DNA from: a virus
Taxonomy: Duplodnaviria; Heunggongvirae; Uroviricota; Caudoviricetes
Length of the DNA stretch: 64,000 nucleotides
Direction: 5' to 3' (one strand)
IMG/VR virus record: IMGVR_UViG_3300032053_000007
This document shows, piece by piece, positions 3,310-55,351 of the stretch; position 1 is the stretch's first letter; every line of letters starts with the position of its first letter. The notes under the pieces are model-generated. The model was not told where the DNA came from. It saw only the letters and a list, made by a program, of their open reading frames with translations, and searched no databases. A program made the translations under genes and the position numbers.

Positions 3310-3698
3310 TGCCAGAAATACCGAAAGTACCAACAATCAAGCCAGTTCTTCCTATCAATCAAGAGAAATGTCCGAAGTGCGGCTCAATAGAAGTCAAACT
3401 TACATATGTTTCAGAAACTTATACAAAGATGGAATGTCGTAAATGTGGTTATCGGGTTGGTGACGATTGGAGACAACCAGCACCACTTAAGGAAGGATGG
3501 GTTTGGTTTCTTAATAGCAAAAAGGCACATTATGTCAAGGAACATCGTGCGCTTTGCGGACGTTGGCTATATCTAGGAAACACTTATGAGTTAGGAAATG
3601 ACGACAGCGTAGATAATTGTGCGGAATGCAAACGAAAATTGCTCAAAACGAATTGGAGAGAAGCAAAGAAATTAGCAAAGGAAGGATTGATACAATAA
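3309..3698 (+). CDS. zinc-ribbon protein
   Basis: CPKCGS..CRKCGY and CAEC. Confidence 0.6.
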   Translation: MPEIPKVPTIKPVLPINQEKCPKCGSIEVKLTYVSETYTKMECRKCGYRVGDDWRQPAPLKEGWVWFLNSKKAHYVKEHRALCGRWLYLGNTYELGNDDSVDNCAECKRKLLKTNWREAKKLAKEGLIQ

Positions 3699-4012
3699 TG
3701 CCAGTAACCATTCATTGTCCACATTGTAACGCAGAACTTCAACTCAAAGAAGAGAATAAAGGTCCAGAAGGTTTACTTGAATGTCCTAAATGTAAATGCA
3801 CATTCAGAGTTTGCTTGGCTACTTTTAATAGAGAATGTTTTGCTAAAATTTATCCAAAAACTGAGTGGAAAGCAGACAAAGACATTCAGATGGAAATTGG
3901 GGAAACTCTTGAGAAACGAAAGCGTGGGCGACCAAAGAAGGATAAAGTAGAATGGCAAGGTGGTCCTATGCAAGAAGTACCAAAAGAGAAGGAAGAAAAA
4001 AATGCCTCTTGA
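3698..4012 (+). CDS. zinc-ribbon protein
   Basis: track ORF 3617.. trimmed to ATG 3698 (TAATG overlap); CPHC..CPKCKC. Confidence 0.55.
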   Translation: MPVTIHCPHCNAELQLKEENKGPEGLLECPKCKCTFRVCLATFNRECFAKIYPKTEWKADKDIQMEIGETLEKRKRGRPKKDKVEWQGGPMQEVPKEKEEKNAS

Positions 4013-4786: not shown

Positions 4787-5030
4787 GTCCTATCGCACAT
4801 TTCTTTTTAAAGAACGCATGATAAACATAATTTCTATAATGCAAAGGTCTAATCCAACAATATGCTACTTTTGTGGTTTGCCTTTTGATGCATCCGATTT
4901 TCCGATTGATGGAAGGGACAAAGTTGATATTCACCATGTTTCTTATTCTCCTGAATATCTAGTATTGGCTCACACAAAATGTCACAAAAAGTTTCACGCC
5001 AAGCAGAAAAAAATCAGAACTAAAGTTTGA
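4755..5030 (+). CDS. HNH endonuclease-like protein
   Basis: CYFCG, DIHHVS, AHTKCHKKFH; start uncertain (alternative ATG 4818). Confidence 0.5.
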   Translation: MKSKKTKKISKSYRTFLFKERMINIISIMQRSNPTICYFCGLPFDASDFPIDGRDKVDIHHVSYSPEYLVLAHTKCHKKFHAKQKKIRTKV

Positions 5031-5096
5031 TAACTATATTATAAAGCATGTTGAAAGCATGGGAAAACGGCGGAGAAGGTTATCAAAACCAATATT

Positions 5097-5112
5097 TTAA
5101 TCAGTTGATTAA
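5097..5112. promoter_or_regulatory. TTAATCA-NN-TGATTAA palindrome (operator candidate)
   Basis: ttaatcagttgattaa, 22 nt upstream of box 5134. Confidence 0.55.
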
Positions 5113-5133
5113 CTGGCATCATAACCTTTAAAT

Positions 5134-5166
5134 TGAGCATGGTTATTCTAGCGTAAGGTTTATAAG
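5134..5166 (+). promoter_or_regulatory. GAGCATGG-box/TATA promoter cassette
   Basis: tGAGCATGGttaTTCT..TTTATAAG; offset 24. Confidence 0.65.
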
Positions 5167-5204
5167 GGACGGAGAGATTATAGTAGTTGGAGTATTGATG
5201 TATA

Positions 5205-5897
5205 ATGGCTCTTAATATAGATATGAGATTTTGGATTAACACGTTAATTTTCAATAATCTAGCTGAAATTTGTCCATTGCTAAGTCTTACTGGCGAAGAC
5301 CGAAAGGTTTATGAAATCTGCATTGAAGACTTTAAGAATTATACTGAATATCTTGACAGAAACCATATGAGTGTTGATAAACAAATATCTCAAGAGTTTC
5401 TACCTTCGCAACAAGTAATCATGGAAGAGATTATATCATTAATTGTAGAAAATTTTGGCGTAACCAAAAATTTGCAAGATATAAAAGACACAGAGGAATT
5501 TGTTCATTTTTGGGTTCAGTCGTGGTGGAAGAAATGGCAATATAGGACGAAAATTATTTTCAAAGACCAACCACATATGATTAATGTTAATTCACACTTT
5601 ACGGTGAATGATTTTACAGGAGAAGAACTTAACGAATTAACTCATGTCGTGACTGACAGACTTATACAATGTGGTGAGATATGCTGTGTCAACATTATGG
5701 CTGATGCCCTTATTAAGAAAGATATTCAAGCCGCTCAAAAATCAGAATGGACCGTTCAAGATAAACTTAATCTGATTCCAAGATTGCAAAGAGAAGTTAA
5801 GGAAATGAGTTATACCCACGGTCCACTCGTGTTCATTAAGGCAAACAAAAGTTACGGACTGAGGGAATGGCGGGATGGCTCAAACAAAATTATATAG
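5205..5897 (+). CDS. hypothetical protein
   Basis: track ORF, 230 aa, no recognisable domain. Confidence 0.6.
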   Translation: MALNIDMRFWINTLIFNNLAEICPLLSLTGEDRKVYEICIEDFKNYTEYLDRNHMSVDKQISQEFLPSQQVIMEEIISLIVENFGVTKNLQDIKDTEEFVHFWVQSWWKKWQYRTKIIFKDQPHMINVNSHFTVNDFTGEELNELTHVVTDRLIQCGEICCVNIMADALIKKDIQAAQKSEWTVQDKLNLIPRLQREVKEMSYTHGPLVFIKANKSYGLREWRDGSNKII

Positions 5898-6584: not shown

Positions 6585-7298
6585 ATGAAACAAAAACAGA
6601 AATGTTCATCATGTGGACAAGATTATTTCGTAACAATGTTGAAGGTTTACGTCTTCAAGAAACATACTTGCCCTGACGACAAAACAGAATTGGCGAAGTC
6701 TATTGATGGGAATATTTTTGGTTGCCCTAAATGTAAGAAGGTATTTCGTAAAACTGTTCCAACCGAATGGAATAGTATGGGCACAAAAATTGAGGGTTCA
6801 ACTCGAAGTCTCGAAGAAAAAGGAAAAAGACTAATAAAGGAACCGAACACAGAGGTTGACAATGTTATGATTCCAGAGAAATCAATGTGCCAGAAATGTC
6901 GTAATTGGCAAATTAGAAGCGAACAAGCTACCAAGAATCGTGAACGAAAAATTGCAATGGGTGTGCCTGATGACATAAAGGTGGTTCCAGATTCGATAAG
7001 TAACGCTGATATTTACAAATATGAAATTTTCAGAAAAACCCAGACAGACTATCAGGAAACTAGAAAAGCGGAAGCATATGAACTACAGAAGAAAGAACGT
7101 GCCGCAATGGAAGCTGAACGCCAAGCAAAACTAGCCGAACAATTTAAGAAACCAGAAACTATGATACCCACAAAAGAAGAAATGATACCATTGATTGACC
7201 CCGAAACTGCAAAAATCATAGAAGAAGTAAAGAAGAAAGACGCTCACATAGCCGAACTGAAAAAGAAACTTGAGAAAGCACAAAAGGCTGAGAAGTAA
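6585..7298 (+). CDS. zinc-ribbon / coiled-coil protein
   Basis: CSSC, CPKC, CQKC; K/E-rich helical C-terminus; SD GTGATTGAA. Confidence 0.6.
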   Translation: MKQKQKCSSCGQDYFVTMLKVYVFKKHTCPDDKTELAKSIDGNIFGCPKCKKVFRKTVPTEWNSMGTKIEGSTRSLEEKGKRLIKEPNTEVDNVMIPEKSMCQKCRNWQIRSEQATKNRERKIAMGVPDDIKVVPDSISNADIYKYEIFRKTQTDYQETRKAEAYELQKKERAAMEAERQAKLAEQFKKPETMIPTKEEMIPLIDPETAKIIEEVKKKDAHIAELKKKLEKAQKAEK

Positions 7299-8416
7299 TG
7301 ACAGGCGCAGATAATCCAGACGAAATCTGGAAACCTTCCAAAGTATTCAAAAGGTTGGAGAAATTAGGAAAGAAGATGAGAAAACCACGAAAGATTCCAG
7401 AAGGATTCGAATGGGACCCTAAAGCTAAAGAATTGATTGATACTAGATGTAATAATGCAAAACTGAGAAAGTTGGTTAAGGAATCTGTTAAGGTTGATTT
7501 CGATAAACCAGCCATATGTATATCTCCATTCTTTACTGGAACAAAGAAACGCCAAAAAGAACTTCCGTGGGAACACTACCCTCATATTCCTATTTTGACA
7601 ACTAATGCCAGACTTAGAAGGTCATTGCTCGGACTTAGACTTCAATGGACAATAAAAGAAGATGGTGAAAATGTTACCATATGGAAGAGAAAGAAACCAC
7701 ATACGCGGAAACAGTTCGAGTTTGTCATATCAAGTCATAATCAAGAGATAGCCGCTAAGGATATTCAAGCCAGAGTAAGAAAAGATTGTGTAGAGGATTA
7801 TGAGAAAATCGTAGCACTAATCGAAGCTAATCCAACATTCAGAGTAATTGTAGAAGAATGTGCCAAAGGTGCAAGCGTCACAGGGATAAGAAGGTATGAA
7901 AAGCCTATCCTGTTCGTTGTTGACATCTACGATACCGCACTCAAGAATTTCCTTCCTTATACACAGGTATATCAATATTGTTATCACTCTAAAATTCCAG
8001 TTGTCCAGCTTTACGCATCAACAAGACACAGAACAATAAAGGATTTGATAAAGTTTTCTAATCACGTTCTGGAATACTGTAACACCGAAAAGGATTACGG
8101 CAAAGATGAAGGTATGGTACTGAAAACATTCGATAAAGAAGGAGAGTATATTCAAGCAAAAGTGAAACTAGATATTCCAAAGCCAATAGTCGAACGGATA
8201 CGAGAGGGACCGCCAAAGTTACCACAAATTCCAGAGAGCGAAATCATGGGTGCAATAAGCCATGTCGAAGCGGACTTTGGATTAGATGGTACACCAAAAC
8301 ATGATATGCCACTTATTGCTAAAGCCGTTTCAGAAGAATGCCGAAAACATCTCTACTCAAGTCGTGGAAACTTGTTCACATTCTATGAAGATTACATGGA
8401 GCGAAGAAAGAAATGA
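7298..8416 (+). CDS. ATP-dependent RNA/DNA ligase-like nucleotidyltransferase
   Basis: motif I KEDG (K120), motif IV EGMVLK, motif V AKVK. Confidence 0.6.
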   Translation: MTGADNPDEIWKPSKVFKRLEKLGKKMRKPRKIPEGFEWDPKAKELIDTRCNNAKLRKLVKESVKVDFDKPAICISPFFTGTKKRQKELPWEHYPHIPILTTNARLRRSLLGLRLQWTIKEDGENVTIWKRKKPHTRKQFEFVISSHNQEIAAKDIQARVRKDCVEDYEKIVALIEANPTFRVIVEECAKGASVTGIRRYEKPILFVVDIYDTALKNFLPYTQVYQYCYHSKIPVVQLYASTRHRTIKDLIKFSNHVLEYCNTEKDYGKDEGMVLKTFDKEGEYIQAKVKLDIPKPIVERIREGPPKLPQIPESEIMGAISHVEADFGLDGTPKHDMPLIAKAVSEECRKHLYSSRGNLFTFYEDYMERRKK

Positions 8417-8529
8417 GAAGGTATCCCGTTAACTTTAGACCGTATAATTGTTGTGCAACCTGTGGAAATGAAGAATGCACCCATAGATGGTGGGGAAGTT
8501 GCAGAGAATGGACGGAGAAGAAAAAATGA
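8413..8529 (+). CDS. Cys-rich mini-protein (38 aa)
   Basis: ATGA overlap at both ends; CCATCG..C..C. Confidence 0.45.
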   Translation: MRRYPVNFRPYNCCATCGNEECTHRWWGSCREWTEKKK

Positions 8530-8810
8530 AAGCTACATTTGAAGGAATATTAAATCTTTCTAATGAGGAATGGGAACAGAAAAAGAAAGAGATAGAATCC
8601 TTTCGAAATTGTACTATTTGTAATGCACGGCTTGTTATGAATCTTTGTCATCTTTACGAAGACAAATACTATTGTGAAGAACATTGCCCAGAACATAAAT
8701 GGCAAAGTGATTATGATTGGGTTACAGAATGTGCCAAATGTGGATTACATTACGAACATTATCTCCAAAAACTTCTCGAAGATAATAAAATTTCTTATTT
8801 AAAAAGATGA
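8526..8810 (+). CDS. Cys/His-rich protein
   Basis: track ORF 8487.. trimmed to ATG 8526 (ovl). Confidence 0.55.
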   Translation: MKATFEGILNLSNEEWEQKKKEIESFRNCTICNARLVMNLCHLYEDKYYCEEHCPEHKWQSDYDWVTECAKCGLHYEHYLQKLLEDNKISYLKR

Positions 8811-8839
8811 TGATAGTGATATATGGAGAGTAGAAAGAA

Positions 8840-8956
8840 ATGACCGATGAAGAATTACGAATAATTTCAGAAAGTCTTAAAGAATATTTGGAAGCAAGGC
8901 GAGAATATAACAGAGTCTATAGGTATCTTAAAGTTGTAAAGGTAATGAGAAAATGA
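8840..8956 (+). CDS. hypothetical mini-protein (38 aa)
   Basis: ATGA overlap with 8953 gene. Confidence 0.4.
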   Translation: MTDEELRIISESLKEYLEARREYNRVYRYLKVVKVMRK

Positions 8957-9174
8957 TATGTCCACATTGCAGAAAAGGAGAATTAGTAAATCCCAGACAT
9001 AACGTTCAACTAGATGCCGACCTTTATACTTGTAATGTTTGTCATCGTGGTTGGCATCAGGATAAAAAGAAGAGATGGCACAGTCACTTTGCGGCAGACG
9101 TTGAAGTATATAGTGAAAATGGGCATACTCTAATAGACTGTTCAACTTGGCACATAAATGAGGGAAGAAAATGA
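8953..9174 (+). CDS. zinc-ribbon protein
   Basis: CPHC..CNVC. Confidence 0.6.
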   Translation: MICPHCRKGELVNPRHNVQLDADLYTCNVCHRGWHQDKKKRWHSHFAADVEVYSENGHTLIDCSTWHINEGRK

Positions 9175-9596
9175 ACTGGCTTAAAAAAGCTAAAAAGAGT
9201 CTTAAAGAAAAATATAACCCCGATACACAGATAGATAAATGTGAATTGTGCGTATGTTGCTTCAAGAAATATAGAGAAGAATATGCCGTGGATTTTAACG
9301 ATGTATTTTTGAGGGCTTCTAATCTCGATAGTCGTATTAGTGGGGAATATTCACCTTATTACAACCTTATTAGGTTGAACAAAATGTATTTGAAACGTTT
9401 GTTCCAATTGAAAACCGTTGATGATGTAATTAGCCACGAGTTGGAACATGCATTAATTTATCGAATAATGCGGCGATTTGGTTTTTCAGAAGAAGTAAGC
9501 GATATTGGTTCTCTCTGTGTTTCCAAACCGTCACAATTTGATTTAAAAGATTTACGAGAGAAACTACATAAAAGGAAGCCAAAAAAATATGCCTGA
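9171..9596 (+). CDS. small HExxH metallopeptidase-like protein
   Basis: VISHELEHALIY. Confidence 0.55.
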   Translation: MNWLKKAKKSLKEKYNPDTQIDKCELCVCCFKKYREEYAVDFNDVFLRASNLDSRISGEYSPYYNLIRLNKMYLKRLFQLKTVDDVISHELEHALIYRIMRRFGFSEEVSDIGSLCVSKPSQFDLKDLREKLHKRKPKKYA

Positions 9597-10266
9597 TGAA
9601 GAGAAAAGAAAAGAAATAAGACACCCAAGTTTTGGTGTAATAAATATCTCTAGGGGCGTTTGCTCAGAGAAAATGAATTTGTTTGGAAGCAGTATCCAGC
9701 AGAGAACATTCATCAGAGTAGATATTAGCAAAGCTATTCTTATGAGGGACCTTTACAAAGATTGGATTATGTCGGACCACGGCGTACCGATAGTATCCGT
9801 TTATCTTTCGCCGTCACAGTTTGCAGATGCTATAACATCTTTGAATCAGGGTGAAGGAACCCCATGCACAATACGTTACATGGATGGACATGAAGTAAAA
9901 GAGGCACAATTTGAAAGTAAACGTGTGCAGTTCGATACCGAATTCGAAGATAAGATGAAGGAAGTCGCATCGACTACTAACCAATTTTACACCAAGATTG
10001 CTGGGATACTAGCGAAGCCGAGCATAGGAAAACATGATAGGGAAGAAATTCAAAAGCAACTCGACCAGTTAAAGATGCAGATAGAAAATAATGTTCCTTT
10101 TATAAAAAGACAATTCTCAGAACAGATGGATGAAACTGTAGTCGAAGCAAAGAATGAAGTTACCGCATTCATAGAAGACAAAATAAAGAAGTTGGGCTTA
10201 GAGGGATACAAAAAGGAACTACAGAAATCTTTAGAATTCAAGGAAGAAAAGAAGGAAGAACCATGA
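9589..10266 (+). CDS. hypothetical protein
   Basis: track ORF 225 aa; helical K/E-rich C-terminal half. Confidence 0.6.
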   Translation: MPDEEKRKEIRHPSFGVINISRGVCSEKMNLFGSSIQQRTFIRVDISKAILMRDLYKDWIMSDHGVPIVSVYLSPSQFADAITSLNQGEGTPCTIRYMDGHEVKEAQFESKRVQFDTEFEDKMKEVASTTNQFYTKIAGILAKPSIGKHDREEIQKQLDQLKMQIENNVPFIKRQFSEQMDETVVEAKNEVTAFIEDKIKKLGLEGYKKELQKSLEFKEEKKEEP

Positions 10267-10430
10267 ACTTTAACGAAGCCAGATGGAAAATTCAAGTGGA
10301 CATAATGTTTTTCCTAGATAGAAAAAATATTCCAATGGCTCTTGAAATTAGTCTATGGCTTACAACCCCGATAACTCTTTGGTACTGGATTATAGGAACA
10401 TTCGTCAAATTGGGGATTCTCGATTTATGA
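10263..10430 (+). CDS. small membrane protein (55 aa)
   Basis: ATGA overlap at both ends; W-rich TM segment. Confidence 0.4.
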   Translation: MNFNEARWKIQVDIMFFLDRKNIPMALEISLWLTTPITLWYWIIGTFVKLGILDL

Positions 10431-10615
10431 CCGAGGAAGTTAAACTTCTTAAATGCCCCAAATGTGGTGAATTGCTTATTCGGGTTAATGAAGAGAAGGA
10501 ACGTCAGCGTGTCGATTGCAAATGGATGTGTATTAACCAAGATTGTAGAAAAGGTTTAGAGTTTCCTGTCTATTATGGTTATACACAAAAAGATATTGAC
10601 AATCAGGTGAAATAA
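10427..10615 (+). CDS. zinc-ribbon protein
   Basis: track ORF 10355.. trimmed to ATG 10427; CPKCG..C..C. Confidence 0.5.
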   Translation: MTEEVKLLKCPKCGELLIRVNEEKERQRVDCKWMCINQDCRKGLEFPVYYGYTQKDIDNQVK

Positions 10616-10746
10616 TGGTTGCTATTAAATCTTGTGACCATTGTGGAAACGATGTTCTCGTTCAAGAAGTTCATCTTTACTGGAACGGCACTTCAATGTC
10701 ATGGATATGTGAAGTGTGTTGGAATAAATGTGGTAGTAAAAATTGA
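10615..10746 (+). CDS. zinc-ribbon mini-protein (43 aa)
   Basis: TAATG overlap; CDHCG..CEVCWNKC. Confidence 0.5.
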   Translation: MVAIKSCDHCGNDVLVQEVHLYWNGTSMSWICEVCWNKCGSKN

Positions 10747-10754
10747 ATGAAACA

Positions 10755-10922
10755 ATGAAACAATGGGTTAAGTCGTCTGGTAAAAAATGTAAAAGTTGTA
10801 AAAGAGAATTAACAGAAATCGAAGCGGCATATTGTGAGAATTTGCATACCTGTGCATACTATTGTATTAACTGTCTTTCAAAGAAGTATTATCTAATGCC
10901 AAAATTGCATGAGGACGATTGA
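10755..10922 (+). CDS. Cys-rich mini-protein (55 aa)
   Basis: CKSC..C..C..CINC. Confidence 0.45.
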   Translation: MKQWVKSSGKKCKSCKRELTEIEAAYCENLHTCAYYCINCLSKKYYLMPKLHEDD

Positions 10923-10936
10923 TATGTTCGAAATTT

Positions 10937-10969
10937 TGAGCATGGGCGTTCTACCACAAAGTTTATAAG
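10937..10969 (+). promoter_or_regulatory. GAGCATGG-box/TATA promoter cassette
   Basis: tGAGCATGGgcgTTCT..TTTATAAG; offset 24. Confidence 0.65.
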
Positions 10970-11008
10970 GAATGAATGCGTATTAGTGTGTAGATAGGTG
11001 AAACAGTA

Positions 11009-11404
11009 ATGTTTGAAATCTGGAAAGACCATTTGGCAACTTGTAACATCTTAGAATCTATGACTCCCGAAGGATGGATAATCGTAGATGTTAGAGATAT
11101 AAAGGATGGAACTGGCAACGATATTGAAGCTATAAAAACCAAAATACAAATCATAGCTAACCTTCTTTCTGTCGGGCAAAAAGTTGTAGTTAGATGTTGC
11201 GGCGGAATATCTCGGTCAAATACTATCGCATGTGCCGTAATGGTATTTATGCTTAATATTGACGGCAGAGATTTCGCTTATCATTGGGCAAAAGTTCGAA
11301 AAGCATGTCCACGGGCACTTATAAATATGGGATTCTTTGATGAAGTAAAGAAAGCCTTAGAAGAATTAGGCGTTGAAGAGAAACGGTTATTCTATGATAC
11401 CTAA
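11009..11404 (+). CDS. Cys-based (dual-specificity-type) protein phosphatase
   Basis: C-X5-R signature VVVRCCGGISRSNT. Confidence 0.7.
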   Translation: MFEIWKDHLATCNILESMTPEGWIIVDVRDIKDGTGNDIEAIKTKIQIIANLLSVGQKVVVRCCGGISRSNTIACAVMVFMLNIDGRDFAYHWAKVRKACPRALINMGFFDEVKKALEELGVEEKRLFYDT

Positions 11405-11651
11405 AAAGAAAGTATGGTTAGTCTGGGAATTTCAAATAGTAACTATAGAAACTGCTAAAGTTCAGTTACAGAGTCTTAGAGTTATCGCTGATACGGAAGA
11501 GAAAGGCGTTATCTATAAAGCCATATTTGAAAGAGAGAAACAATGGAAGTTTACTAAAGATGAATTATGGTTTGAACTTGAGGAAAGAGAGGTTAATCAT
11601 ATGTTCGGAATAGAAGACTTGAACAGATATGTGAGTAGAAATAGAATATGA
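11394..11651 (+). CDS. hypothetical protein
   Basis: track ORF 11373.. trimmed to ATG 11394. Confidence 0.5.
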   Translation: MIPKKKVWLVWEFQIVTIETAKVQLQSLRVIADTEEKGVIYKAIFEREKQWKFTKDELWFELEEREVNHMFGIEDLNRYVSRNRI

Positions 11652-12304
11652 ACAAACTTATTTGCTTAATGCCAGTTTACAACTCGGCTGATGTAGTTCT
11701 AGAAGCCTTAAAATCTATAGACGGCAAAGTTGATGAGATATTTTGTCTTGACGGGCGATGGATTGGTACGAGTGGTTTAGACCATTCAACTGATGAAACA
11801 CAGGAAATAATTTTGAATTTTTCTGAACATTCAAAATCTCGTGTTTGTTACACAAGATTACGACCTATGCATCAATGGGAAGCTAGGACAGAATCATTAA
11901 AATTTTGTGGTGATGGAGATTGGGCAATTTTTCTCGACTCAGATGAGATAATAATCATGTGGGGCGATAATGTTCGTAAAACGCTTGAAATATCAAATGA
12001 GAAAGTATATCGTATTTATTGGAAATTTTATAAACCTCATACGGCACTTCTAAGATATGGACTTGTTAAAAAGACAGAAACAATACATTGGTCAACAGAC
12101 CATAGGAGAATATTTGATAAAGATGGTGAATTAGATATAGTACATGCTCCAATAATCAATATTGTATTTGACCATCAAAAAATAGCCGACATAAAGAAGA
12201 TGCGTAAACGAGAGGAAGAATACAAACATTGGCTTCACGAATATGAAACTACACATTGGAATTTAGAAGATGGTCCAGACCCCAATCAAATTGATTTGGG
12301 ATAA
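11648..12304 (+). CDS. glycosyltransferase family 2-like
   Basis: LMPVYNSADVV N-terminus; FLDSDE DxD motif. Confidence 0.6.
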   Translation: MNKLICLMPVYNSADVVLEALKSIDGKVDEIFCLDGRWIGTSGLDHSTDETQEIILNFSEHSKSRVCYTRLRPMHQWEARTESLKFCGDGDWAIFLDSDEIIIMWGDNVRKTLEISNEKVYRIYWKFYKPHTALLRYGLVKKTETIHWSTDHRRIFDKDGELDIVHAPIINIVFDHQKIADIKKMRKREEEYKHWLHEYETTHWNLEDGPDPNQIDLG

Positions 12305-12555
12305 TCAAGATAGGAATTAGGTGGGTAATAAATTTTCCCATCAAAACATGGTATTTCTTTATAGTTCAATTCTTTACAACAAAAGTACCGATGATGACCA
12401 TTCAGAATTATGGCTTTTCCATCTTCACGAAACATTACTCGCAAAGGCTCTTTTAATCCATTAACTCGAATATCTTCAAGTAATACCTTCTCAACTTTGG
12501 GATTTCCTCTTGGAATTATTTTGTCTATGGGAACCATAATTATAGGGATTTTCAA
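12286..12555 (-). CDS. ParB/sulfiredoxin-like N-terminal domain protein (nuclease-type)
   Basis: PLRV..ILNGHHRYFCC..IPC; TTG start in junction. Confidence 0.65.
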   Translation of the reverse strand: MKIPIIMVPIDKIIPRGNPKVEKVLLEDIRVNGLKEPLRVMFREDGKAIILNGHHRYFCCKELNYKEIPCFDGKIYYPPNSYLDYPKSI

Positions 12556-12671
12556 GTGAACTGCACCTTAGTTTTTTCTTTTATATGTTTACAATTCTCA
12601 CAGAGCCATCGTGTCGTCTTTGGCTTCTTGTATAATACTTGAACATCTTTGCCACACCCATCGCAAATCAA
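12552..12671 (-). CDS. zinc-ribbon VxFT-tail mini-protein (39 aa)
   Basis: CDGCGK..CENC; ends TKVQFT; ovl at both ends. Confidence 0.55.
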   Translation of the reverse strand: MICDGCGKDVQVLYKKPKTTRWLCENCKHIKEKTKVQFT

Positions 12672-12850
12672 GTGAACTCGACCTTCTCTCCAAGTTCTCT
12701 ATAACCACATTCTTTAATTTGACCTTTACTTTTACAAGTGCATTTTTTACAAAGACAAACAGAAAGTCCTTTTGACACACTTTCCTCACACACTATATCA
12801 CCTTTACAGAAAAATTCTTTTCCACAATCAACACATTTCATTTTTATCAA
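12668..12850 (-). CDS. ZR-F family zinc-ribbon mini-protein
   Basis: CVDCGKEFFCKGDIVC..CLCKKC; ends EKVEFT. Confidence 0.65.
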   Translation of the reverse strand: MIKMKCVDCGKEFFCKGDIVCEESVSKGLSVCLCKKCTCKSKGQIKECGYRELGEKVEFT

Positions 12851-12960
12851 TCGAACTGCACCTTTACCCTCTCATCTTCTTTTTTCGGAAATTTAGGTTT
12901 CATTTTGTCGGCTGGAAGTAGAACAATGTTGTAATAGTCATCCCAACGATAGTTGCACAT
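12847..12960 (-). CDS. VxFT-tail mini-protein (37 aa)
   Basis: track ORF ..13089 trimmed to ATG 12960, 30 nt from TATA; ends VKVQFD. Confidence 0.45.
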   Translation of the reverse strand: MCNYRWDDYYNIVLLPADKMKPKFPKKEDERVKVQFD

Positions 12961-12985
12961 GGTAATCAATAGAACAATAACCATA

Positions 12986-13016
12986 AGACTTATATATACC
13001 TTTCTCCTTCTATATA
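12986..13016. promoter_or_regulatory. divergent promoter region (TATA boxes for minus operon and 13037 gene)
   Basis: cttatatatac plus ctatatac between divergent starts 12960(-) and 13037(+). Confidence 0.45.
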
Positions 13017-13036
13017 CAGATTGTGTAGTGATAAGC

Positions 13037-13201
13037 ATGGCAAAGCCATTTATTCCTTTGACAAAAGAGGAACAACAGGCTAGAGCCACTAGGATAGCAC
13101 AACGGGTTTGTACTTCATGCCGTTACGACTACGAAACTGGATGCAAAAAATGTATCTGGTATTTCATAATGAATGGAATGATAGGAGAGGAAGAATTTTG
13201 A
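13037..13201 (+). CDS. Cys-rich small protein
   Basis: track ORF 12953.. trimmed to ATG 13037 after SD GTGATAAGC; CTSC..CKKC. Confidence 0.5.
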   Translation: MAKPFIPLTKEEQQARATRIAQRVCTSCRYDYETGCKKCIWYFIMNGMIGEEEF

Positions 13202-14250: not shown

Positions 14251-14411
14251 GTGATTGTAATAGATGTCCATATTGTGGTTCTGTTCCTATTCATGACCCA
14301 ATAATGTGTATAAATAAGTGCCCCCATTGTGGACGAATATGGTCTGATATTTACGCTGAGAATTATCTTTCAGATTTTTGGAACCGACCAGTAAAGGTAC
14401 AATTCGACTAA
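14247..14411 (+). CDS. zinc-ribbon VxFT-tail mini-protein (54 aa)
   Basis: CNRCPYCG..CPHCG; ends VKVQFD; stop TAA. Confidence 0.55.
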   Translation: MSDCNRCPYCGSVPIHDPIMCINKCPHCGRIWSDIYAENYLSDFWNRPVKVQFD

Positions 14412-14449
14412 CCGTAAAGTTTATATACTTCTTTTAATACAGTATCTCT

Positions 14450-14735
14450 TAGACACGGGTAATTGTTCACAACTTACATAGATGGACATGCCCCATGTTA
14501 GGACCTTTCGGGTACACGATTGGCGACAACATGATTGGTCGGACAACGAACAAGACCTATAGGAGTTGGGTGAACCCGCCAGCAATGCATTGGGGGTGGC
14601 GAAACCCTGACAAAACCGTGTCATGACCGAAGACCCACGGTGGGAGCGAAACGTACACTATGATATACGGATTGGCAGAACGGCTCGCCGTGATAGCTAT
14701 GGGGTCGGGTGTACTTTACCCGTCCCCACATTCTA
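14450..14735 (+). ncRNA. candidate structured ncRNA, class unknown
   Basis: own TATA (14420-14427); GC-richer than flanks; no + ORF; ends pair (acgggtaa 14455 / ttacccgt 14718); internal hairpins and GATTGG..ACAAC repeats. Confidence 0.45.
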
Positions 14736-14785
14736 TTTCCATAACCTTTAAATACCCGTTTTTCTTCTCATTCTAATGGATAGCA

Positions 14786-15229
14786 ATGGCTAGAATAAAG
14801 AAAAACATCAAAGGTATTCCGTTATTTTTATACGACTTTTTACAAATTTCCTTGTCAGCCTTCAAAGATTATTATCTAAAATTGAAGGTTTCTATAACAG
14901 GAGAAAATTATATTGGTCGTTATGTGGGAATCATTAGTTCATCTGAAAGACGACTTAGTTTTGAGAAATGCATAGCTGGTGGCTATACGGGGTATGTTCA
15001 GATAAAACTTTTCTCAAATCCAGATTGTGATGATTATGAAGAATGTGCAGAAGAAATTCTCAATCATGAAATACTTCATCAAGTGCTTGACAAAGTTGTG
15101 GGGCATGAAGCCAAAATGGGATTAGATAATATTCACAAGTCTTTCTATGTTCTCGATTGCAATGATAATAAGTGGCGGTTTGTGATAAAATTCATTAGCA
15201 AGAAAAAAGGGAATGTAGCCATTATCTGA
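14786..15229 (+). CDS. small HExxH metallopeptidase-like protein
   Basis: ILNHEILHQV; TATA TTTAAATA at 14747. Confidence 0.55.
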   Translation: MARIKKNIKGIPLFLYDFLQISLSAFKDYYLKLKVSITGENYIGRYVGIISSSERRLSFEKCIAGGYTGYVQIKLFSNPDCDDYEECAEEILNHEILHQVLDKVVGHEAKMGLDNIHKSFYVLDCNDNKWRFVIKFISKKKGNVAII

Positions 15230-15301
15230 GGTAAACAAAAACCTATAAGATGAACCGAAAGATTTATATATTAGTTAGAAGTATATAAGTTTGTGATTTC
15301 A

Positions 15302-15679
15302 ATGTCATTAAAAGATAGAAAACAAAAAAGACAATATATGAAAGATTATTGGATAACTCATCCAGAGAAATATGCGGACCAAAAGAAATCCATGACAAAA
15401 TTTCATAGAAAACAAAGACAATCGTTGAGAGTTGAGATTATTCAACTGCTCGGTAGCAAGTGTTCTAATACAGATTGTCCTATTCCACCTGAAAAGATGG
15501 ATATTAGATGTTTGCAAATAGACCATATAAATGGAAACGGAAATAAAGAACGAAGTCAATTTAGCAATTATAACCAATGGTTGAAATTTATCTTACCAAA
15601 AATACAAGTTGGTTCTAAAGATTATCAACTTCTTTGTGCATATTGTAATTGGATAAAACGTTATACTGAAAAATCCTAG
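15302..15679 (+). CDS. HNH endonuclease
   Basis: CLQIDHINGNGN..LLCAYCNWIK; trimmed to ATG 15302; TATA 15263. Confidence 0.65.
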   Translation: MSLKDRKQKRQYMKDYWITHPEKYADQKKSMTKFHRKQRQSLRVEIIQLLGSKCSNTDCPIPPEKMDIRCLQIDHINGNGNKERSQFSNYNQWLKFILPKIQVGSKDYQLLCAYCNWIKRYTEKS

Positions 15680-15727
15680 TATAAAAACCTATCGCAAGAT
15701 GTAAATAGGCGTTATACGTGAATTCTT

Positions 15728-15743
15728 TTAATCATATGATTAA
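15728..15743. promoter_or_regulatory. TTAATCA-NN-TGATTAA palindrome
   Basis: ttaatcatatgattaa. Confidence 0.5.
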
Positions 15744-15845
15744 ACTTTCAAAATGTGCGATTGGGCAAAAAGCGATTTCAAATCTTAACACCGTGGCTCT
15801 GCTCCGCACCATATGTTCAAACCGACTTATAAATGTTGCGGAAAT

Positions 15846-15878
15846 TGAGTATGGAGTTTCTAGCGCAAGGTTTATAAG
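15846..15878 (+). promoter_or_regulatory. GAGCATGG-box/TATA promoter cassette
   Basis: tGAGTATGGagtTTCT..TTTATAAG; offset 24; heads array 1. Confidence 0.65.
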
Positions 15879-15910
15879 GGACGAAAGACATTATTATTCC
15901 CAGATGGAAA

Positions 15911-16153
15911 ATGAGCGACAATCGTAAAACCCCATTCGGAAAACTCAACAGACGAGCAGAGCAAATTGCTGGTGATATTGATACAAAGAAGTTGGAAGAC
16001 GAGATTGGTGAGGCATTAGCAGATGCATGGCAAGCTGGCTATGACGAAGGATGCGGTACAGCACATGATGAGGGTTATCAGGAAGGAAAGGCAGAGGGCA
16101 TAAGGGAAGCCGAAGAGAAGTTTAAAGCCAAAGAGAAAGTGACGTTCACATGA
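15911..16153 (+). CDS. acidic VxFT-tail mini-protein
   Basis: ends EKVTFT, ovl ATGA. Confidence 0.6.
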   Translation: MSDNRKTPFGKLNRRAEQIAGDIDTKKLEDEIGEALADAWQAGYDEGCGTAHDEGYQEGKAEGIREAEEKFKAKEKVTFT

Positions 16154-32537: not shown

Positions 32538-33218
32538 ATGAAAAAAAGAAATTTGATAATAATCGCGCTTTTGATTGCGTTAGTGATACCAATAGTGATA
32601 GTTCCAGCATTTGCTTCTGACGACAATGATAAGCCAAATTGCAATGACGGTGACGATGGCAACTCTTGTAACAACAAGACCAAAATAATCTACGTGGACA
32701 GAATTGTTTACGTCAACCAAACGGTTGAAGTTCCTGTTTACGTGGACAGAATAGTGTACGTTGACAGAGTTGTTGAGAAAATCGTTTACAAAGACAGAAT
32801 AGTGGAAAAGACTGTTTACATTGACAGAATAGTTGAAAAGATTGTCTATGTTGACAAAGTTGTTGAAACAGTCGTTTACGTTGAAGTGCCAATAGAGGTC
32901 ATCAAAGAAGTCATTAAGGAAGTGCCTGTCGAAGTCATCAAGGAAGTCGAAATAATCAAATACTGCAACAACACGGTCTATATCGAAGTGCCAAAAGAAG
33001 TCATCAAGTACATCGAGAAAGTCCTTTACGTGAACAGAGTTGTTTACGTTGACAAGCCATTCTACGTCTATATCACCGACAACAAGAAAGACTGTAACCC
33101 ATGTTGGCTCTTGATAATCATACTGACTTTCATACTAGGACTGATAATTGGGGCATTGCTCAACAATCGAAAGTGTGTTTGCGTCAAAGAAACCAAAAAC
33201 AAAAATACCAAACAATAG
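32538..33218 (+). CDS. secreted/anchored repeat protein (x-V-Y-x-D-R-I-V-E-K decapeptide repeats)
   Basis: N-terminal signal/TM, Cys/Asp/Asn-rich stretch, about 10 repeats, then (E)VIKEV repeats, C-terminal TM. Confidence 0.65.
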   Translation: MKKRNLIIIALLIALVIPIVIVPAFASDDNDKPNCNDGDDGNSCNNKTKIIYVDRIVYVNQTVEVPVYVDRIVYVDRVVEKIVYKDRIVEKTVYIDRIVEKIVYVDKVVETVVYVEVPIEVIKEVIKEVPVEVIKEVEIIKYCNNTVYIEVPKEVIKYIEKVLYVNRVVYVDKPFYVYITDNKKDCNPCWLLIIILTFILGLIIGALLNNRKCVCVKETKNKNTKQ

Positions 33219-46390: not shown

Positions 46391-46606
46391 ATGACATATA
46401 TCGGGCAAGACGAAGAATTAACGATAGAGCGTGGTTGTTTTAATTGCGCTCGATTCAAAAAATGTCATCTTATTGAGGGACAAAGAAGAAATGGAATTAA
46501 TTTTATGGAGATTTTGAAGGACGGTGCGGAAGATTATCGTTATGGTTGTTGTTGCACAACTTATCTAGCAGAATCCGAAGCTAGAGAACAGGTGCAATTT
46601 ACTTGA
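46391..46606 (+). CDS. GCFNC family mini-protein
   Basis: trimmed to ATG 46391; RGCFNCARFKKC..YRYGCCC; ends EQVQFT. Confidence 0.6.
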   Translation: MTYIGQDEELTIERGCFNCARFKKCHLIEGQRRNGINFMEILKDGAEDYRYGCCCTTYLAESEAREQVQFT

Positions 46607-46890
46607 TTCAAAATTGTCCGTCTTGCGGTTCAATTCGCTTGACTCGAAAATGTCCGTCTTGTGGTTCTATTCTGGAAGAACAAAGTGGAACACTTTTTTT
46701 CACAGATAGTTTTTCACAACACGATAGACAAAAAATAAGGGAAACTCACTTTTTGCATTATTTTTGCGAAGTTTGTCGTAAAAATGATTTGCCTTTTGAC
46801 TTTTTATTTTTCAAAGGAAAACAATTCATTTATGATAAGGGCAGATGGAACCTCTTAGCTCCTGAGAGAGAATGTGTTCAATTCACCTAA
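46603..46890 (+). CDS. zinc-ribbon VxFT-tail protein
   Basis: CPSCGS..CPSCGS; ends ECVQFT encoded GAATGTGTTCAATTCACCTAA (no SD, TAA stop). Confidence 0.6.
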   Translation: MIQNCPSCGSIRLTRKCPSCGSILEEQSGTLFFTDSFSQHDRQKIRETHFLHYFCEVCRKNDLPFDFLFFKGKQFIYDKGRWNLLAPERECVQFT

Positions 46891-46946
46891 TTAATCAACC
46901 ATAAGACTTAAATACTTAATTAACCATCTATTAATTAGTGTTTCAA

Positions 46947-47300
46947 ATGAAATGTCAAGACTGTGAAAAAGAAACAAATACAAAATCTCAAAGATGTCCT
47001 GAATGCCAAAAGATATATCACCAAAAATGGCTAGAAGAATTAAAACTCTGGGCGATTCAAAAGTTAGGCGATAAGTGTTTTCATTGCGATAAACATTTTG
47101 ATTCTTGTGTTTATGATTTTCACCATGAAGGAAACGATACATGGCTTCGTTGCAATGAACAACAAAAAAATGCGAATCGAAGAGTAAAAGAATTGGTTCG
47201 TTGGAGAAGGGCAGAGAAAATTCCAGAGGACGTTCGATTAGTCTGCGCGAATTGTCACAGAATTATTAGTCATAAATCGTTTAATCACCTGATTAAGTAA
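46947..47300 (+). CDS. HNH endonuclease
   Basis: CFHCDK..DFHHEGN..LVCANCHRIISH; 3-prime end encodes palindrome 47281 (FNHLIK). Confidence 0.65.
   Translation: MKCQDCEKETNTKSQRCPECQKIYHQKWLEELKLWAIQKLGDKCFHCDKHFDSCVYDFHHEGNDTWLRCNEQQKNANRRVKELVRWRRAEKIPEDVRLVCANCHRIISHKSFNHLIK
47281..47296. promoter_or_regulatory. TTAATCA-NN-TGATTAA palindrome
   Basis: ttaatcacctgattaa inside end of HNH CDS, 7 nt upstream of box. Confidence 0.55.
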
Positions 47301-49266: not shown

Positions 49267-49267
49267 G
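49235..49267 (+). promoter_or_regulatory. GAGCATGG-box/TATA promoter cassette
   Basis: cGAGAATGGtctTTCT..TTTATAAG; offset 24. Confidence 0.6.
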
Positions 49268-49284
49268 TCACGGTGTTGTTCTAG

Positions 49285-49300
49285 TTAATCAGGTGATTAA
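49285..49300. promoter_or_regulatory. TTAATCA-NN-TGATTAA palindrome on predicted TSS
   Basis: ttaatcaggtgattaa. Confidence 0.55.
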
Positions 49301-49464
49301 TACGGGAAAACTTCATAGGATAAAGCGCAAACTCGCAAAACGCAAAGTCACGGGGGTCTGCCGTTGAACGTCCGAAAACTTAGACGTTTCTATTCAAGTC
49401 TGCCGACAGGCTCACATCACGGTCAACCGTTCGCACATGGCAAGTTTAGAGAGGGGTTGAAAGC

Positions 49465-52837: not shown

Positions 52838-53090
52838 CATGACGCACTCGCGTCTAACTAAAGGGCGCGTAAGACCGAAGGACGCACAACGTCCAAAAAC
52901 TTACCGACCCTTCAAAGTCGCTAGGGTTACGTTCGAAATAAGCGACAAGAACGGAACCGCACAAGACCGAAGGTTTGTCTCGCGGTAAAACGGGGCATTC
53001 CACCAACTTGTGCTTCAACTGACAAAAAAACCACAAACCACGTCCGAAAACGGGGCATGGCACACTCTCCATGCCCCCTCTCTCCTTTTT
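52838..53090 (+). other. promoter-to-terminator unit: GC-rich RNA or leaderless 49-aa basic ORF (52838..52987)
   Basis: ATG at predicted TSS; atypically GC-rich; repeats aagaccgaagg x2 and aaacggggcat x2; ends in hairpin plus T5. Confidence 0.35.
53052..53090 (+). terminator. hairpin plus T-run terminator
   Basis: ggggcatgg-cacactct-ccatgcccc ..ccttttt. Confidence 0.55.
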
Positions 53091-53122
53091 AAGTATGGTC
53101 TTTCTATGACAAGGTTTATATA
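53091..53122 (+). promoter_or_regulatory. GAGCATGG-box/TATA promoter cassette (variant box)
   Basis: aAGTATGGtctTTCT..TTTATATA; offset 24. Confidence 0.55.
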
Positions 53123-53144
53123 GGACGCAGACATATTACTTTTG

Positions 53145-53262: not shown

Positions 53263-53265
53263 AAT

Positions 53266-55335: not shown

Positions 55336-55351
55336 TTAATCAACTGATTAA
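55336..55351. promoter_or_regulatory. TTAATCA-NN-TGATTAA palindrome
   Basis: ttaatcaactgattaa. Confidence 0.55.

What the first reader, a model, noticed from the sequence alone, without database searches (positions are those of the whole stretch)
14420..14735. Promoter-driven ~285-nt GC-rich structured RNA candidate between protein genes
A TATA box at 14420-14427 predicts a transcription start near 14450.

The following ~285 nt have these properties:
- They are visibly GC-richer than the surroundings.
- They have no plus-strand ORF.
- They start and end with complementary 8-mers (acgggtaa at 14455, ttacccgt at 14718).
- They contain several local hairpins, for example ccgtg..cacgg at 14617-14640 and gggtgaaccc.
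- They contain three copies of GATTGG(N)C(G)ACAAC-like repeats and two GCGAAAC motifs.

The next gene has its own TATA at 14747. I saw no RNase P, SRP or tRNA signature motifs. The only ORF here (14421..14624, minus strand) has atypical composition.
Basis: seen in the sequence. Interest (0 to 1): 0.7.

Follow-up and report, generated by a model that had tools for sequence, protein, structure and literature searches.

The report
New structured RNA in archaeal viruses
Between two protein genes of an uncultivated archaeal-type virus lies a separate gene, with its own promoter, for a roughly 280-base folded RNA that matches no known RNA family, keeps its fold through compensating mutations in related viruses, and has an unknown job.

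Summary
The finding holds up. Window 14452-14727 (+ strand) is a GC-rich island (0.53 against 0.33-0.40 nearby). A BRE/TATA promoter (TATA 14420-14427) precedes it, and a second promoter (TATA 14747-14754) for the next gene follows it.

I found seven distinct full-length copies plus one half copy on related metagenomic contigs, at 76-99% identity. No reading frame is conserved on either strand.

A ten-helix fold is kept in 98% of cells. Twenty of 67 pairs carry changes on both sides, against 8.5±2.0 in shuffles and 1-4 in shifted registers. G·U pairs outnumber A·C mismatches 39 to 4, which places the RNA on the + strand.

Rfam 15 and ARAGORN give no match.

The RNA is an accessory cassette (promoter, RNA, promoter). 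Nine more distant, syntenic relatives lack it at the same site.

Function is unknown. My best inference, at low confidence, is a trans-acting protein-binding or decoy RNA whose invariant ~40-nt core is the recognition surface. That core resembles a CRISPR repeat only weakly and not significantly.

The parts
14410..14427 (+). Promoter of the RNA gene: BRE-like AACCGTAAAG followed by the TATA box TTTATATA (14420-14427).
   Evidence: Read directly in the sequence. It matches the window-wide motif, 35 on + and 8 on -. It is conserved in all seven full-length copies, 24-26 nt upstream of the first helix.
14450..14452 (+). Predicted transcription start, about 23-25 nt after the TATA box. The RNA would begin at or 1-2 nt before helix P1.
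   Evidence: Inferred from standard archaeal promoter geometry and the conserved spacing. No transcript data.
14452..14727 (+). Body of the structured RNA (276 nt from P1 to the end of P8), GC about 0.51.
   Evidence: Homologues at 76-99% identity. Covariance-model hits of 302-342 bits, one per locus. Structure statistics. SCI 0.73.
14452..14456 (+). P1 5' strand GACAC. It pairs with GUGUC at 14618-14622 and closes the 5' domain.
   Evidence: Pair 2 is A-U in 5 copies, G-C in 1 and G-U in 1; the other pairs are invariant. Coordinates.
14457..14493 (+). P2 hairpin: GGGUAAUUGUUCA (14457-14469) pairs with UGGACAUGCCC (14483-14493).
   Evidence: Eleven pairs, 4 with changes on both sides, 98.7% of cells paired. 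Three sequence types occur.
14494..14533 (+). P3/P3a arm: CAUGUUA (14494-14500) with CAACAUG (14527-14533), and inner CCUUUCG (14504-14510) with CGAUUGG (14517-14523). It holds the first GATTGGCGACAAC 'repeat'.
   Evidence: Seven of 12 pairs have double changes. L023 replaces the whole arm with an unrelated hairpin of the same shape.
14534..14564 (+). Junction with no supported pairing. Its 3' part belongs to the invariant block AAGACCUAUAGGAGUUG (14552-14568), which contains the palindrome CCUAUAGG.
   Evidence: Invariant in 7 of 7 copies. No supported partner was found.
14565..14611 (+). P5/P6 arm: GUUGGGU (14565-14571) with ACCCUGAC (14604-14611), and P6 14576-14585 with 14590-14599. The apical sequence CAAUGCAUUG is self-complementary.
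   Evidence: Fifteen pairs, 4 with double changes, 98-100% of cells paired. Two sequence types occur.
14612..14652 (+). Near-invariant core AAAACCGUGUCAUGACCGAAGACCCACGGUGGGAGCGAAAC. It spans the P1 3' strand, a 13-nt single strand and the P7 5' strand.
   Evidence: Invariant runs at 14612-14620 and 14625-14646 across 8 copies. The best Rfam hit is CRISPR-DR56, at only 13.4-15.9 bits against a threshold of 35.
14636..14692 (+). P7: CACGGUGGGAGCG (14636-14648) with CGGCUCGCCGUG (14681-14692). It encloses the most variable stretch (14653-14680).
   Evidence: Eleven pairs, 100% of cells paired, only U-A/U-G and C-G/U-G changes and no double change. The loop diverges gradually and has no protospacer-like match.
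14701..14727 (+). P8 3'-terminal GC-clamped hairpin: GGGGUCGGGUG (14701-14711) with UACCCGUCCCC (14717-14727).
   Evidence: Nine pairs, 4 with double changes, 100% of cells paired.
14728..14741 (+). T-containing tail ACATTCTATTTCCA; the likely 3' end region. The T-tract is weak.
   Evidence: Read directly in the sequence. The consensus scan calls no bacterial-type terminator. Termination is inferred, not shown.
14739..14754 (+). Second promoter (CCATAACC plus TTTAAATA at 14747-14754), serving the 147-aa HExxH gene (14786-15229). It is not part of the RNA.
   Evidence: Kept intact in every copy, and it is the only promoter at 'empty' sites.
14421..14624 (-).
   Evidence: Stops and frame shifts in L014, L002 and L023; no third-position excess. 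No Pfam or PHROG match.

Best explanation
Window 14452-14727 (+) is an independent gene for a non-coding, highly structured RNA of about 280-290 nt.

Anatomy. An archaeal-type BRE/TATA promoter drives it, and it ends at a GC-clamped hairpin (P8) with a short T-containing tail. A second promoter for the next gene follows directly. The fold has two parts. The 5' domain is closed by P1 and carries three arms (P2, P3/P3a, P5/P6). The 3' part has a 13-nt conserved single strand, helix P7 with a variable loop, and P8.

Distribution. It behaves as an accessory cassette (promoter, RNA, promoter), an RNA 'moron', inserted between a zinc-ribbon gene and a 147-aa gene in one subgroup of related viruses. 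Its helices are reshuffled by recombination between variants.

Proposed mechanism (inferred, low confidence). The RNA acts in trans as a stable protein-binding RNA, either a scaffold or a decoy for a host or viral factor. The arms may change sequence as long as they stay paired. The ~40-nt core at 14612-14652 and the block at 14552-14568 are invariant, which fits a recognition surface.

Shown: conservation, non-coding nature, fold, strand, promoter motif, accessory distribution. Inferred: the transcript ends, action in trans, protein binding.
For: - GC island.
- Promoter motif, its genome-wide strand bias and its conserved spacing.
- Seven full-length copies and one partial copy on contigs from independent samples.
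- 97.8-98.4% of cells paired, with 17-20 doubly changed pairs against 6.5-8.5 in shuffles and 1-4 in shifted registers.
- SCI 0.73 and folding z-scores of -1.4 to -5.4.
- 39 G·U cells against 4 A·C cells, counted from the pair tables, which puts the structure on the + strand.
- No conserved ORF on either strand.
- One copy per locus.
- Empty sites keep a single promoter. The RNA is absent from L005, L006, L017, L019, L020, L022 and L025-27.
- In L001 an AAA ATPase gene with its own promoter follows the RNA, so the RNA is not tied to one downstream gene.
- L013 shares 98.9% of the RNA but only 58% of the downstream protein.
- Invariant core.
Against: - No expression data, so transcript existence and ends are inferred.
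- The T-tract after P8 is weak, so read-through into the next gene cannot be excluded.
- Only seven distinct full-length sequences exist, and they are mosaic, so independent compensatory events are fewer than the cell counts suggest.
- P7 and much of P1 never vary, so those helices rest on complementarity and energy alone.
- Nothing identifies a binding partner. No neighbouring protein gene co-occurs strictly with the RNA.
- The window copy's own folding z-score is weak.
Confidence: 0.5

Rival explanations
1. CRISPR-repeat mimic or crRNA-like RNA (a special case of a decoy). The invariant stretch GUCAUGACCGAAGACCCACGGUGGGAGCGAAAC (14620-14652) would imitate a host CRISPR repeat: a GUC start, a small CCCA-CGG-UGGG hairpin and an 8-nt ...GAAAC handle. 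It would titrate Cas6 or Cascade-type proteins like the RNA anti-CRISPRs (Racrs) of phages, or yield a crRNA-like product whose 'spacer' is the variable P7 loop.
For: - When only the core is searched, the top Rfam hit is a full-length alignment to CRISPR-DR56. It scores 13.4 bits (E = 2) in the window and 15.9 bits (E = 0.41) in L016, where the 5' end reads GUCGAGAC as in the model.
- The most variable segment starts right after GAAAC.
- Racrs are solitary repeat units carried in viral genomes (PMC10651486).
Against: - The scores are far below the gathering score of 35.
- Smith-Waterman comparison with 15 reference repeats gives p≈0.15 for Haloferax I-B and p≈0.03 uncorrected for the DR56 consensus (repeats from PMC3737339).
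- No array carrying the 19- or 20-mer turned up in 185,579 species genomes or in the JGI metagenome contigs.
- There is no second repeat.
- The 'spacer' diverges gradually like a loop and matches nothing in the window or the loci.
- The repeat-like segment is sequestered in P1 and P7.
- A 280-nt multi-helix RNA is far larger than a Racr.
Confidence: 0.1
2. Cis-acting leader or riboswitch-like element that controls the downstream 147-aa gene through alternative pairings. CACGG and CCGUG each occur twice, so two nested folds are possible.
For: - The RNA usually lies directly upstream of the 147-aa gene.
- The alternative conformer lies within 3-6 kcal/mol of P1+P7.
- All four 5-mers are invariant.
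- The T-tract after P8 is weak.
Against: - A complete promoter lies between the RNA and the gene in every copy, and it is the sole promoter at empty sites.
- In L001 a different gene follows the RNA.
- Nine relatives express the gene without the RNA.
- There is no match to any riboswitch family.
Confidence: 0.1
3. A new ribozyme, self-cleaving or otherwise catalytic, whose active site is the invariant core and junctions.
For: A ~40-nt invariant core surrounded by helices that vary freely while staying paired is the conservation pattern typical of catalytic RNAs. Small ribozymes are common in viral genomes (general knowledge).
Against: - No hit to any ribozyme family even at E ≤ 10.
- No hammerhead, HDV or twister core motif was seen on inspection.
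- There is no obvious need for processing in a transcript with a single promoter and one RNA.
Confidence: 0.08
4. An assembly or packaging RNA that forms oligomers, as phi29 pRNA does, through its self-complementary elements (CCUAUAGG and the P6 apex CAAUGCAUUG).
For: Both palindromes are invariant in 7 of 7 copies.
Against: - About one 8-nt palindrome is expected by chance in 280 nt (my estimate).
- Any even-looped hairpin is palindromic.
- The RNA is dispensable, since syntenic relatives lack it. That does not fit an essential morphogenetic part.
Confidence: 0.05
5. A DNA-level element, such as a replication origin, a single-strand initiation signal or a recombination or attachment site, rather than an RNA.
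For: It contains palindromes and short direct repeats. It lies at a mosaic boundary between related genomes.
Against: - The 39:4 excess of G·U over A·C gives a strand-specific fold downstream of a conserved promoter.
- There is no GC-skew turn at this position.
- It is absent from close relatives, which does not fit an origin.
- No integrase lies nearby and there is no tRNA fragment.
Confidence: 0.05
6. Protein-coding: the 67-aa minus-strand ORF (14421-14624) or the small plus-strand ORFs (14495-14626, 14623-14751).
For: Open frames of 59-100 codons occur on the minus strand of every copy. Substitutions in the + ORF 14495-14626 show a third-position excess, 27/23/45 on positions 1/2/3.
Against: - Each candidate frame is broken by stops in several copies. 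The + ORF is broken in L001, L014 and L023, and the - ORF in L014, L002 and L023.
- Indels of 1, 2 and 4 nt occur.
- The ATG at 14623 is lost in L001 and L002.
- No family match.
- Gene callers left the gap empty in L001-L003, L023 and L030.
Confidence: 0.02

Closest known systems
Phage 'morons' (independent promoter-gene-terminator cassettes inserted between two genes)
   Same: It has its own promoter and a terminal hairpin. It sits between two genes that are adjacent in relatives. It shows presence/absence polymorphism, and recombination occurs at its edges.
   Different: The cargo is a structured RNA, not a protein, and the setting is an archaeal-type BRE/TATA transcription system.
RNA anti-CRISPRs (Racrs) and solitary repeat units in viruses (PMC10651486)
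   Same: It is a virus-encoded non-coding RNA with its own promoter. A 33-nt invariant segment has the general outline of a CRISPR repeat, and its best, non-significant Rfam hit is CRISPR-DR56.
   Different: The similarity is not significant. No matching array was found. The RNA is about 280 nt with ten helices, and the repeat-like part is base-paired inside P1 and P7.
Abundant stand-alone viral ncRNAs that bind host proteins (adenovirus VA RNAs, EBV EBERs; review PMC4378190)
   Same: A separate transcription unit, strongly structured, a few hundred nt at most, non-coding, and non-essential or accessory. This is the functional analogy behind my best guess.
   Different: Those are eukaryotic Pol III transcripts with known partners such as PKR, La and L22. 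There is no sequence or structural relationship here, and no partner is known.
phi29 packaging RNA (pRNA)
   Same: A virus-encoded structured RNA with its own promoter and self-complementary loop elements.
   Different: pRNA is essential and present in all relatives. This RNA is absent from syntenic relatives. No Rfam match.
Large structured RNAs linked to phages and mobile elements in Rfam (ROOL, GOLLD, HEARO/ωRNA, raiA)
   Same: An orphan, complex-fold ncRNA on a mobile element, recognised by GC content and covariation.
   Different: No covariance-model match to any of them. It is smaller. No IscB/TnpB-type gene lies next to it. The context is archaeal rather than bacterial.

Membership tests
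Any Rfam 15 family (4227 models, including SRP, RNase P, riboswitches, ribozymes, CRISPR-DR, ROOL/GOLLD/HEARO) | Covariance-model score at or above the family's gathering score. | tested here: not met
   No match over the whole window. At E ≤ 10 there are only chance-level hits: icd-II and Phe_leader at 17.8 bits, CRISPR-DR56 at 13.4-15.9 bits against 35, and sR43 at 7.9 bits.
tRNA / tmRNA | Cloverleaf or tmRNA architecture found by ARAGORN. | tested here: not met
   No genes in the window.
Structured non-coding RNA gene (generic) | Secondary structure conserved through compensatory substitutions. | tested here: met
   98.4% of cells paired; 20 of 67 pairs doubly changed against 8.5±2.0 in shuffles (0 of 500 reach the observed value) and 1-4 in shifted registers. 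The MAFFT-only alignment gives 17 against 6.5±1.9.
Structured non-coding RNA gene (generic) | No conserved reading frame. | tested here: met
   Stops and frame-shifting indels in every candidate frame in several copies.
Structured non-coding RNA gene (generic) | A discrete transcript with defined ends. | not testable with these tools
   Only the promoter motif and its conserved spacing are available. No RNA-seq data.
Racr / solitary CRISPR repeat unit | Significant sequence similarity to a CRISPR repeat family. | tested here: inconclusive
   The top Rfam hit is CRISPR-DR56, but at 13.4-15.9 bits against a threshold of 35. Alignment p≈0.03-0.15, uncorrected for 15 comparisons.
Racr / solitary CRISPR repeat unit | A cognate CRISPR array with the same repeat in a host genome. 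| tested here: not met
   Exact 19- and 20-mer scans of GTDB species genomes and JGI metagenome contigs returned only the viral copies and single chance hits in unrelated, mostly coding, sequence, and no arrays. Diverged repeats would escape an exact scan.
Virus-borne mini-CRISPR array | At least two repeats flanking a spacer that matches a competitor. | tested here: not met
   No second repeat. The variable segment has no protospacer-like match in the window or the 32 loci.
Riboswitch / cis-regulatory leader | Lies in the 5' UTR of the regulated gene, in the same transcription unit. | tested here: not met
   A complete BRE/TATA promoter separates the RNA from the next gene in all copies. The downstream gene differs in L001.
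ωRNA / HEARO (IscB, IsrB, TnpB guide RNAs) | Directly adjacent to, or overlapping, an IscB/TnpB-type nuclease gene. | tested here: not met
   The neighbours are a 54-aa zinc ribbon, an unassigned 251-aa protein, a 147-aa HExxH protein and a 128-aa HNH protein. The HNH gene is window-specific.
Retron msr/msd | An adjacent reverse transcriptase gene. | tested here: not met
   No RT domain in the flanking proteins scanned. The rest of the window was only partly scanned.
phi29-type pRNA | An essential component present in all related viruses; intermolecular loop-loop pairing. | tested here: not met
   Absent from nine syntenic relatives. Oligomerisation is not testable here.

The most novel reading that the evidence does not exclude
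This would be the first conserved, complex-fold non-coding RNA class encoded by archaeal viruses. It would act as an RNA-based counter-defence or host-takeover factor, for example a decoy whose invariant CRISPR-repeat-like core captures Cas6 or crRNP proteins. Alternatively it would be a new ribozyme whose core is the invariant 40 nt.
Probability: 0.2. Interest if true: 0.85.

Novelty: categorically new. Interest (0 to 1): 0.68.

Why it matters
To my knowledge, and on the evidence of these searches, no curated RNA family describes a large structured non-coding RNA specific to archaeal viruses.

Here a ~280-nt RNA has a well-supported ten-helix fold, its own promoter and an invariant core. It behaves as an accessory cassette in a little-known group of environmental viruses. 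In phages, that combination is typical of anti-defence or host-manipulation genes.

The RNA gives a concrete object for experiments on RNA-based virus-host conflict in archaea. It can be synthesised and probed, and used as bait. It also provides a covariance model for finding more members.

The label 'categorically new' means only that the RNA fits no described family. The general idea of a stand-alone viral ncRNA is well known in bacteria and eukaryotes, and the function here remains unproven.

Tried and rejected
- Rfam at gathering and permissive thresholds, on the window, the region, the core and L016: nothing significant.
- ARAGORN: nothing.
- BLAST of the region and of window proteins against 50,697 phage records: only a 27%-identity hit of the RNA ligase to a Methanofastidiosa virus.
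- IMG/VR scans, two by flanking protein and four by DNA pattern: nothing, or chance hits in coding sequence (L015, L029).
- Genome scan: one chance hit in a Nannocystaceae MAG.
- The metagenome 20-mer scan also returned five unrelated hits, mostly in coding sequence (L007, L008, L010-L012).
- Targets complementary to the conserved single strands: none in the window.
- Pseudoknot or extra-helix search over all column pairs: no covarying helix beyond the model.
- CRISPR-repeat hypothesis: not significant, no array, no protospacers, no second repeat.
- By inspection only: K-turn, C/D-box, H/ACA, hammerhead and group II domain V motifs. None fits; no tool was used for these.
- Partner-gene search by presence/absence: no protein gene tracks the RNA. 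The only co-occurring feature is a second non-coding block at about 15693-15875.
- PHROG and Pfam scans of 30 window proteins did not identify the virus family or host.
Full report
**Context**

The window is AT-rich (GC 0.33-0.43 per kb), and nearly all long ORFs lie on the + strand. The octamer TTTAWATA occurs 35 times on the + strand and 8 times on the - strand. It usually follows a BRE-like A-rich stretch and sits 35-45 nt before a start codon. That is archaeal-type promoter architecture.

Protein content:
- RNA ligase, dual-specificity phosphatase and glycosyltransferases;
- a KaiC-like ATPase, an SPFH protein and a MoxR-type AAA ATPase;
- HNH endonucleases and a weak terminase-like hit.

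The only phage-database hit is to a Methanofastidiosa virus. Together these point to a poorly known virus-like element of an archaeon. The host was not identified.

**Checking the observation**

- The TATA box at 14420-14427, the second TATA at 14747-14754 and the GC peak (0.535 against 0.33-0.40) are as described.
- The 8-mers, the CCGTG/CACGG words and the two GCGAAAC motifs exist, with coordinate slips of 1-2 nt.
- Small + strand ORFs of 43 and 42 aa exist, contrary to 'no plus-strand ORF'.
- Rfam 15 and ARAGORN find nothing.
- Folding energy of the window copy alone is not unusual: z = -0.87 on +, -0.07 on -.

**Homologues**

The flanking proteins have no close relatives in IMG/VR. The large protein collection does hold relatives of the 147-aa and 251-aa neighbours. 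Fetching their contigs, plus one 20-mer scan of the JGI metagenomes, gave seven distinct full-length copies and one 3' half:

| Copy | Coordinates | Strand | Identity to window |
|---|---|---|---|
| window | 14452-14727 | + | - |
| L013 | 1498-1771 | - | 98.9% |
| L001 | 2245-2532 | + | 88% |
| L030 (= L031) | within 5003-5307 | + | not computed (332.5 bits to R1) |
| L014 | 9722-10006 | - | 83% |
| L002 (= L003 = L009) | 3671-3941 | + | 81% |
| L023 (= L024) | within 5522-5827 | + | 76% |
| L016 (contig end, 3' half only) | 1-130 | + | 72% |

They come from different sequencing projects (Logan, ENA, JGI). nhmmer and covariance model R1 find exactly one copy per locus and none elsewhere in the window.

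**Not coding**

- The alignments contain indels of 1, 2 and 4 nt.
- The window's + ORF (14495-14626) is cut by stops in L001, L014 and L023.
- The minus-strand ORF (14421-14624) is cut in L014, L002 and L023.
- The ATG at 14623 is missing in L001 and L002.
- Substitutions in the minus ORF fall 49/58/42 on codon positions 1/2/3.
- Gene callers left the gap empty in L001-L003, L023 and L030.

**Structure**

RNAalifold on a plain MAFFT alignment of six copies gives 67 pairs in ten to eleven helices, 17 of them with compensatory double changes.

| Control | MAFFT alignment | R1-guided alignment, 8 copies |
|---|---|---|
| Cells paired | 97.8% (shuffles 92.2±0.7) | 98.4% |
| Doubly changed pairs | 17 (shuffles 6.5±1.9, 0/500 reach it) | 20 (shuffles 8.5±2.0, 0/500 reach it) |
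| Same measure in shifted registers | 1-2 | 1-4 |

- Covariation is concentrated in P2 (4 pairs), P3/P3a (7), P5/P6 (4) and P8 (4).
- P1 has one covarying pair (A-U, G-C, G-U).
- P7 (11 bp) never breaks but changes only U-A to U-G and C-G to U-G.
- In L023 the whole P3 arm is replaced by an unrelated hairpin of the same shape.
- SCI is 0.73, and folding z-scores of the seven copies run from -1.4 to -5.4.
- The pair tables hold 39 G·U cells and 4 A·C cells, so the fold belongs to the + strand, downstream of the promoter.
- Window coordinates of the helices come and are listed under 'parts'.

- The terminal 8-mer pairing (14455-14462 with 14716-14723) keeps 84% of cells paired but has no compensatory change. 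When the 3' arm changed, the compensating change is in the 5' arm of P8.
- The CCGTG/CACGG hairpin is a possible alternative conformer. All four CACGG/CCGUG words are invariant, so comparison cannot decide. P1+P7 is 3-6 kcal/mol more stable in six of seven copies, and P1 has the one covarying pair.
- The GATTGG...ACAAC repeats and the first GCGAAAC are not conserved.

**Conserved core**

Invariant runs of 8 nt or more:
- CACGGGUAAU (14454-14463)
- AAGACCUAUAGGAGUUG (14552-14568)
- AUGCAUUG (14585-14592)
- AAAACCGUG (14612-14620)
- GACCGAAGACCCACGGUGGGAG (14625-14646)

The helices tolerate change as long as pairing is kept, but this core does not change at all. That suggests a specific recognition or catalytic surface.

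**Genomic behaviour**

- Nine syntenic relatives have the same flanking genes separated by 40-160 nt that hold a single promoter. Filled sites read promoter, RNA, promoter.
- L001 carries a 454-aa AAA ATPase gene with its own promoter between the RNA and the 147-aa gene.
- L013 shares 98.9% of the RNA but only 58% of the downstream protein.
- Helix types are reassorted. L030 combines the window's P2, L002's P6 and L001's P8.

The RNA is therefore an accessory, recombining cassette. It is not an essential part such as an origin or a packaging RNA, and it is not tied to one downstream gene.

**Function**

Nothing here shows function directly.

- I tested a CRISPR-repeat idea, because the best Rfam hit for the core is CRISPR-DR56 at full model length and the most variable segment begins right after ...GAAAC. 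The scores are far below threshold. Similarity to reference repeats (PMC3737339) is not significant. No matching array exists in the scanned genomes or metagenomes. There is no second repeat. The variable loop diverges gradually and matches no protospacer. It remains a lead only.
- No complementary target exists in the window.
- No protein gene co-occurs strictly with the RNA.
- By elimination, and by analogy with accessory early-region cassettes in phages and with protein-binding viral ncRNAs (PMC4378190; Racrs, PMC10651486), the most likely role is a trans-acting protein-binding or decoy RNA.

I put about 0.9 on 'a real, independent structured ncRNA gene' and about 0.3 on this specific mechanism. 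The stated confidence of 0.5 covers the combined statement.

**Novelty and verdict**

The RNA fits no family in Rfam 15. Two literature searches turned up no described structured ncRNA of archaeal viruses. Interest is 0.68: a solid, new, experimentally tractable RNA whose function is still open.

Noticed in passing
window 15693-15875 (homologues e.g. L030 5808-6046, L001 4470-4709, L002 4448-4679): A second conserved non-coding block lies downstream of the 147-aa gene. It has a promoter-like GCAAGATGTAAATAGGCG, a perfect palindrome TTAATCA-TA-TGATTAA, about 45 variable nt, and then a ~55-nt invariant stretch (TTAACACCGTGGCTCTGCTCCGCACC...GGTTGCGG). The overlapping ORF 15718-15927 is not conserved: its ATG is lost in three loci and there are 1-2-nt indels. 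The block is present in all six full loci that carry the RNA and absent from five informative loci without it. alifold finds hairpins but no covariation, so it could be a small RNA or a DNA regulatory site.
   Followed up: partly
window 15293-15679 and 46938-47300: Small HNH endonuclease genes (PHROG E = 2e-8 and 1e-8). The first interrupts the otherwise conserved order of 147-aa gene then second block, and has no close counterpart in most related loci, so it looks like a mobile insertion.
   Followed up: partly
L001 2640-4004: A 454-aa AAA ATPase gene with its own promoter is inserted between the RNA and the 147-aa gene in one relative only.
   Followed up: no
window 12286-13090: A stretch with negative GC skew in a genome otherwise transcribed from the + strand. 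The minus-strand ORFs there are better conserved than the overlapping plus-strand ones (88% aa identity to L006 against about 70%), which suggests a small leftward gene cluster.
   Followed up: no
window 59446-59495 and 63574-63783: Tandem units that each carry a promoter-like CCTTATATAC motif: 26 nt x 1.9 copies, and 49-58 nt x 2.2 copies. Further promoter motifs with no start codon within the ~40 nt shown downstream lie at 52809, 53115, 54474, 55057 and 56020. GC-richer gaps occur at 49267-49464, 52989-53264 and 55193-55680. These may be further non-coding transcripts or a terminal or regulatory region.
   Followed up: no
window 7298-12304 (also L030, L023, L002): A conserved gene set of RNA ligase (PF09414), dual-specificity phosphatase (DSPc) and a family-2 glycosyltransferase lies upstream of the RNA locus. 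It may be an RNA repair or end-modification module. It is also present in L005, which lacks the RNA.
   Followed up: no
L030 (JGI 3300053059): This JGI contig contains the exact 20-mer used for the metagenome scan but was not returned by that scan. The scanned collection is therefore incomplete, and the true number of copies is underestimated.
   Followed up: yes
window 46591-46672 and 32750-32884: Head-to-tail repeats of 36 nt (2.3 copies) and 30 nt (4.5 copies; this one lies inside ORF 32538-33218). They have no spacers, so they are not CRISPR arrays.
   Followed up: no
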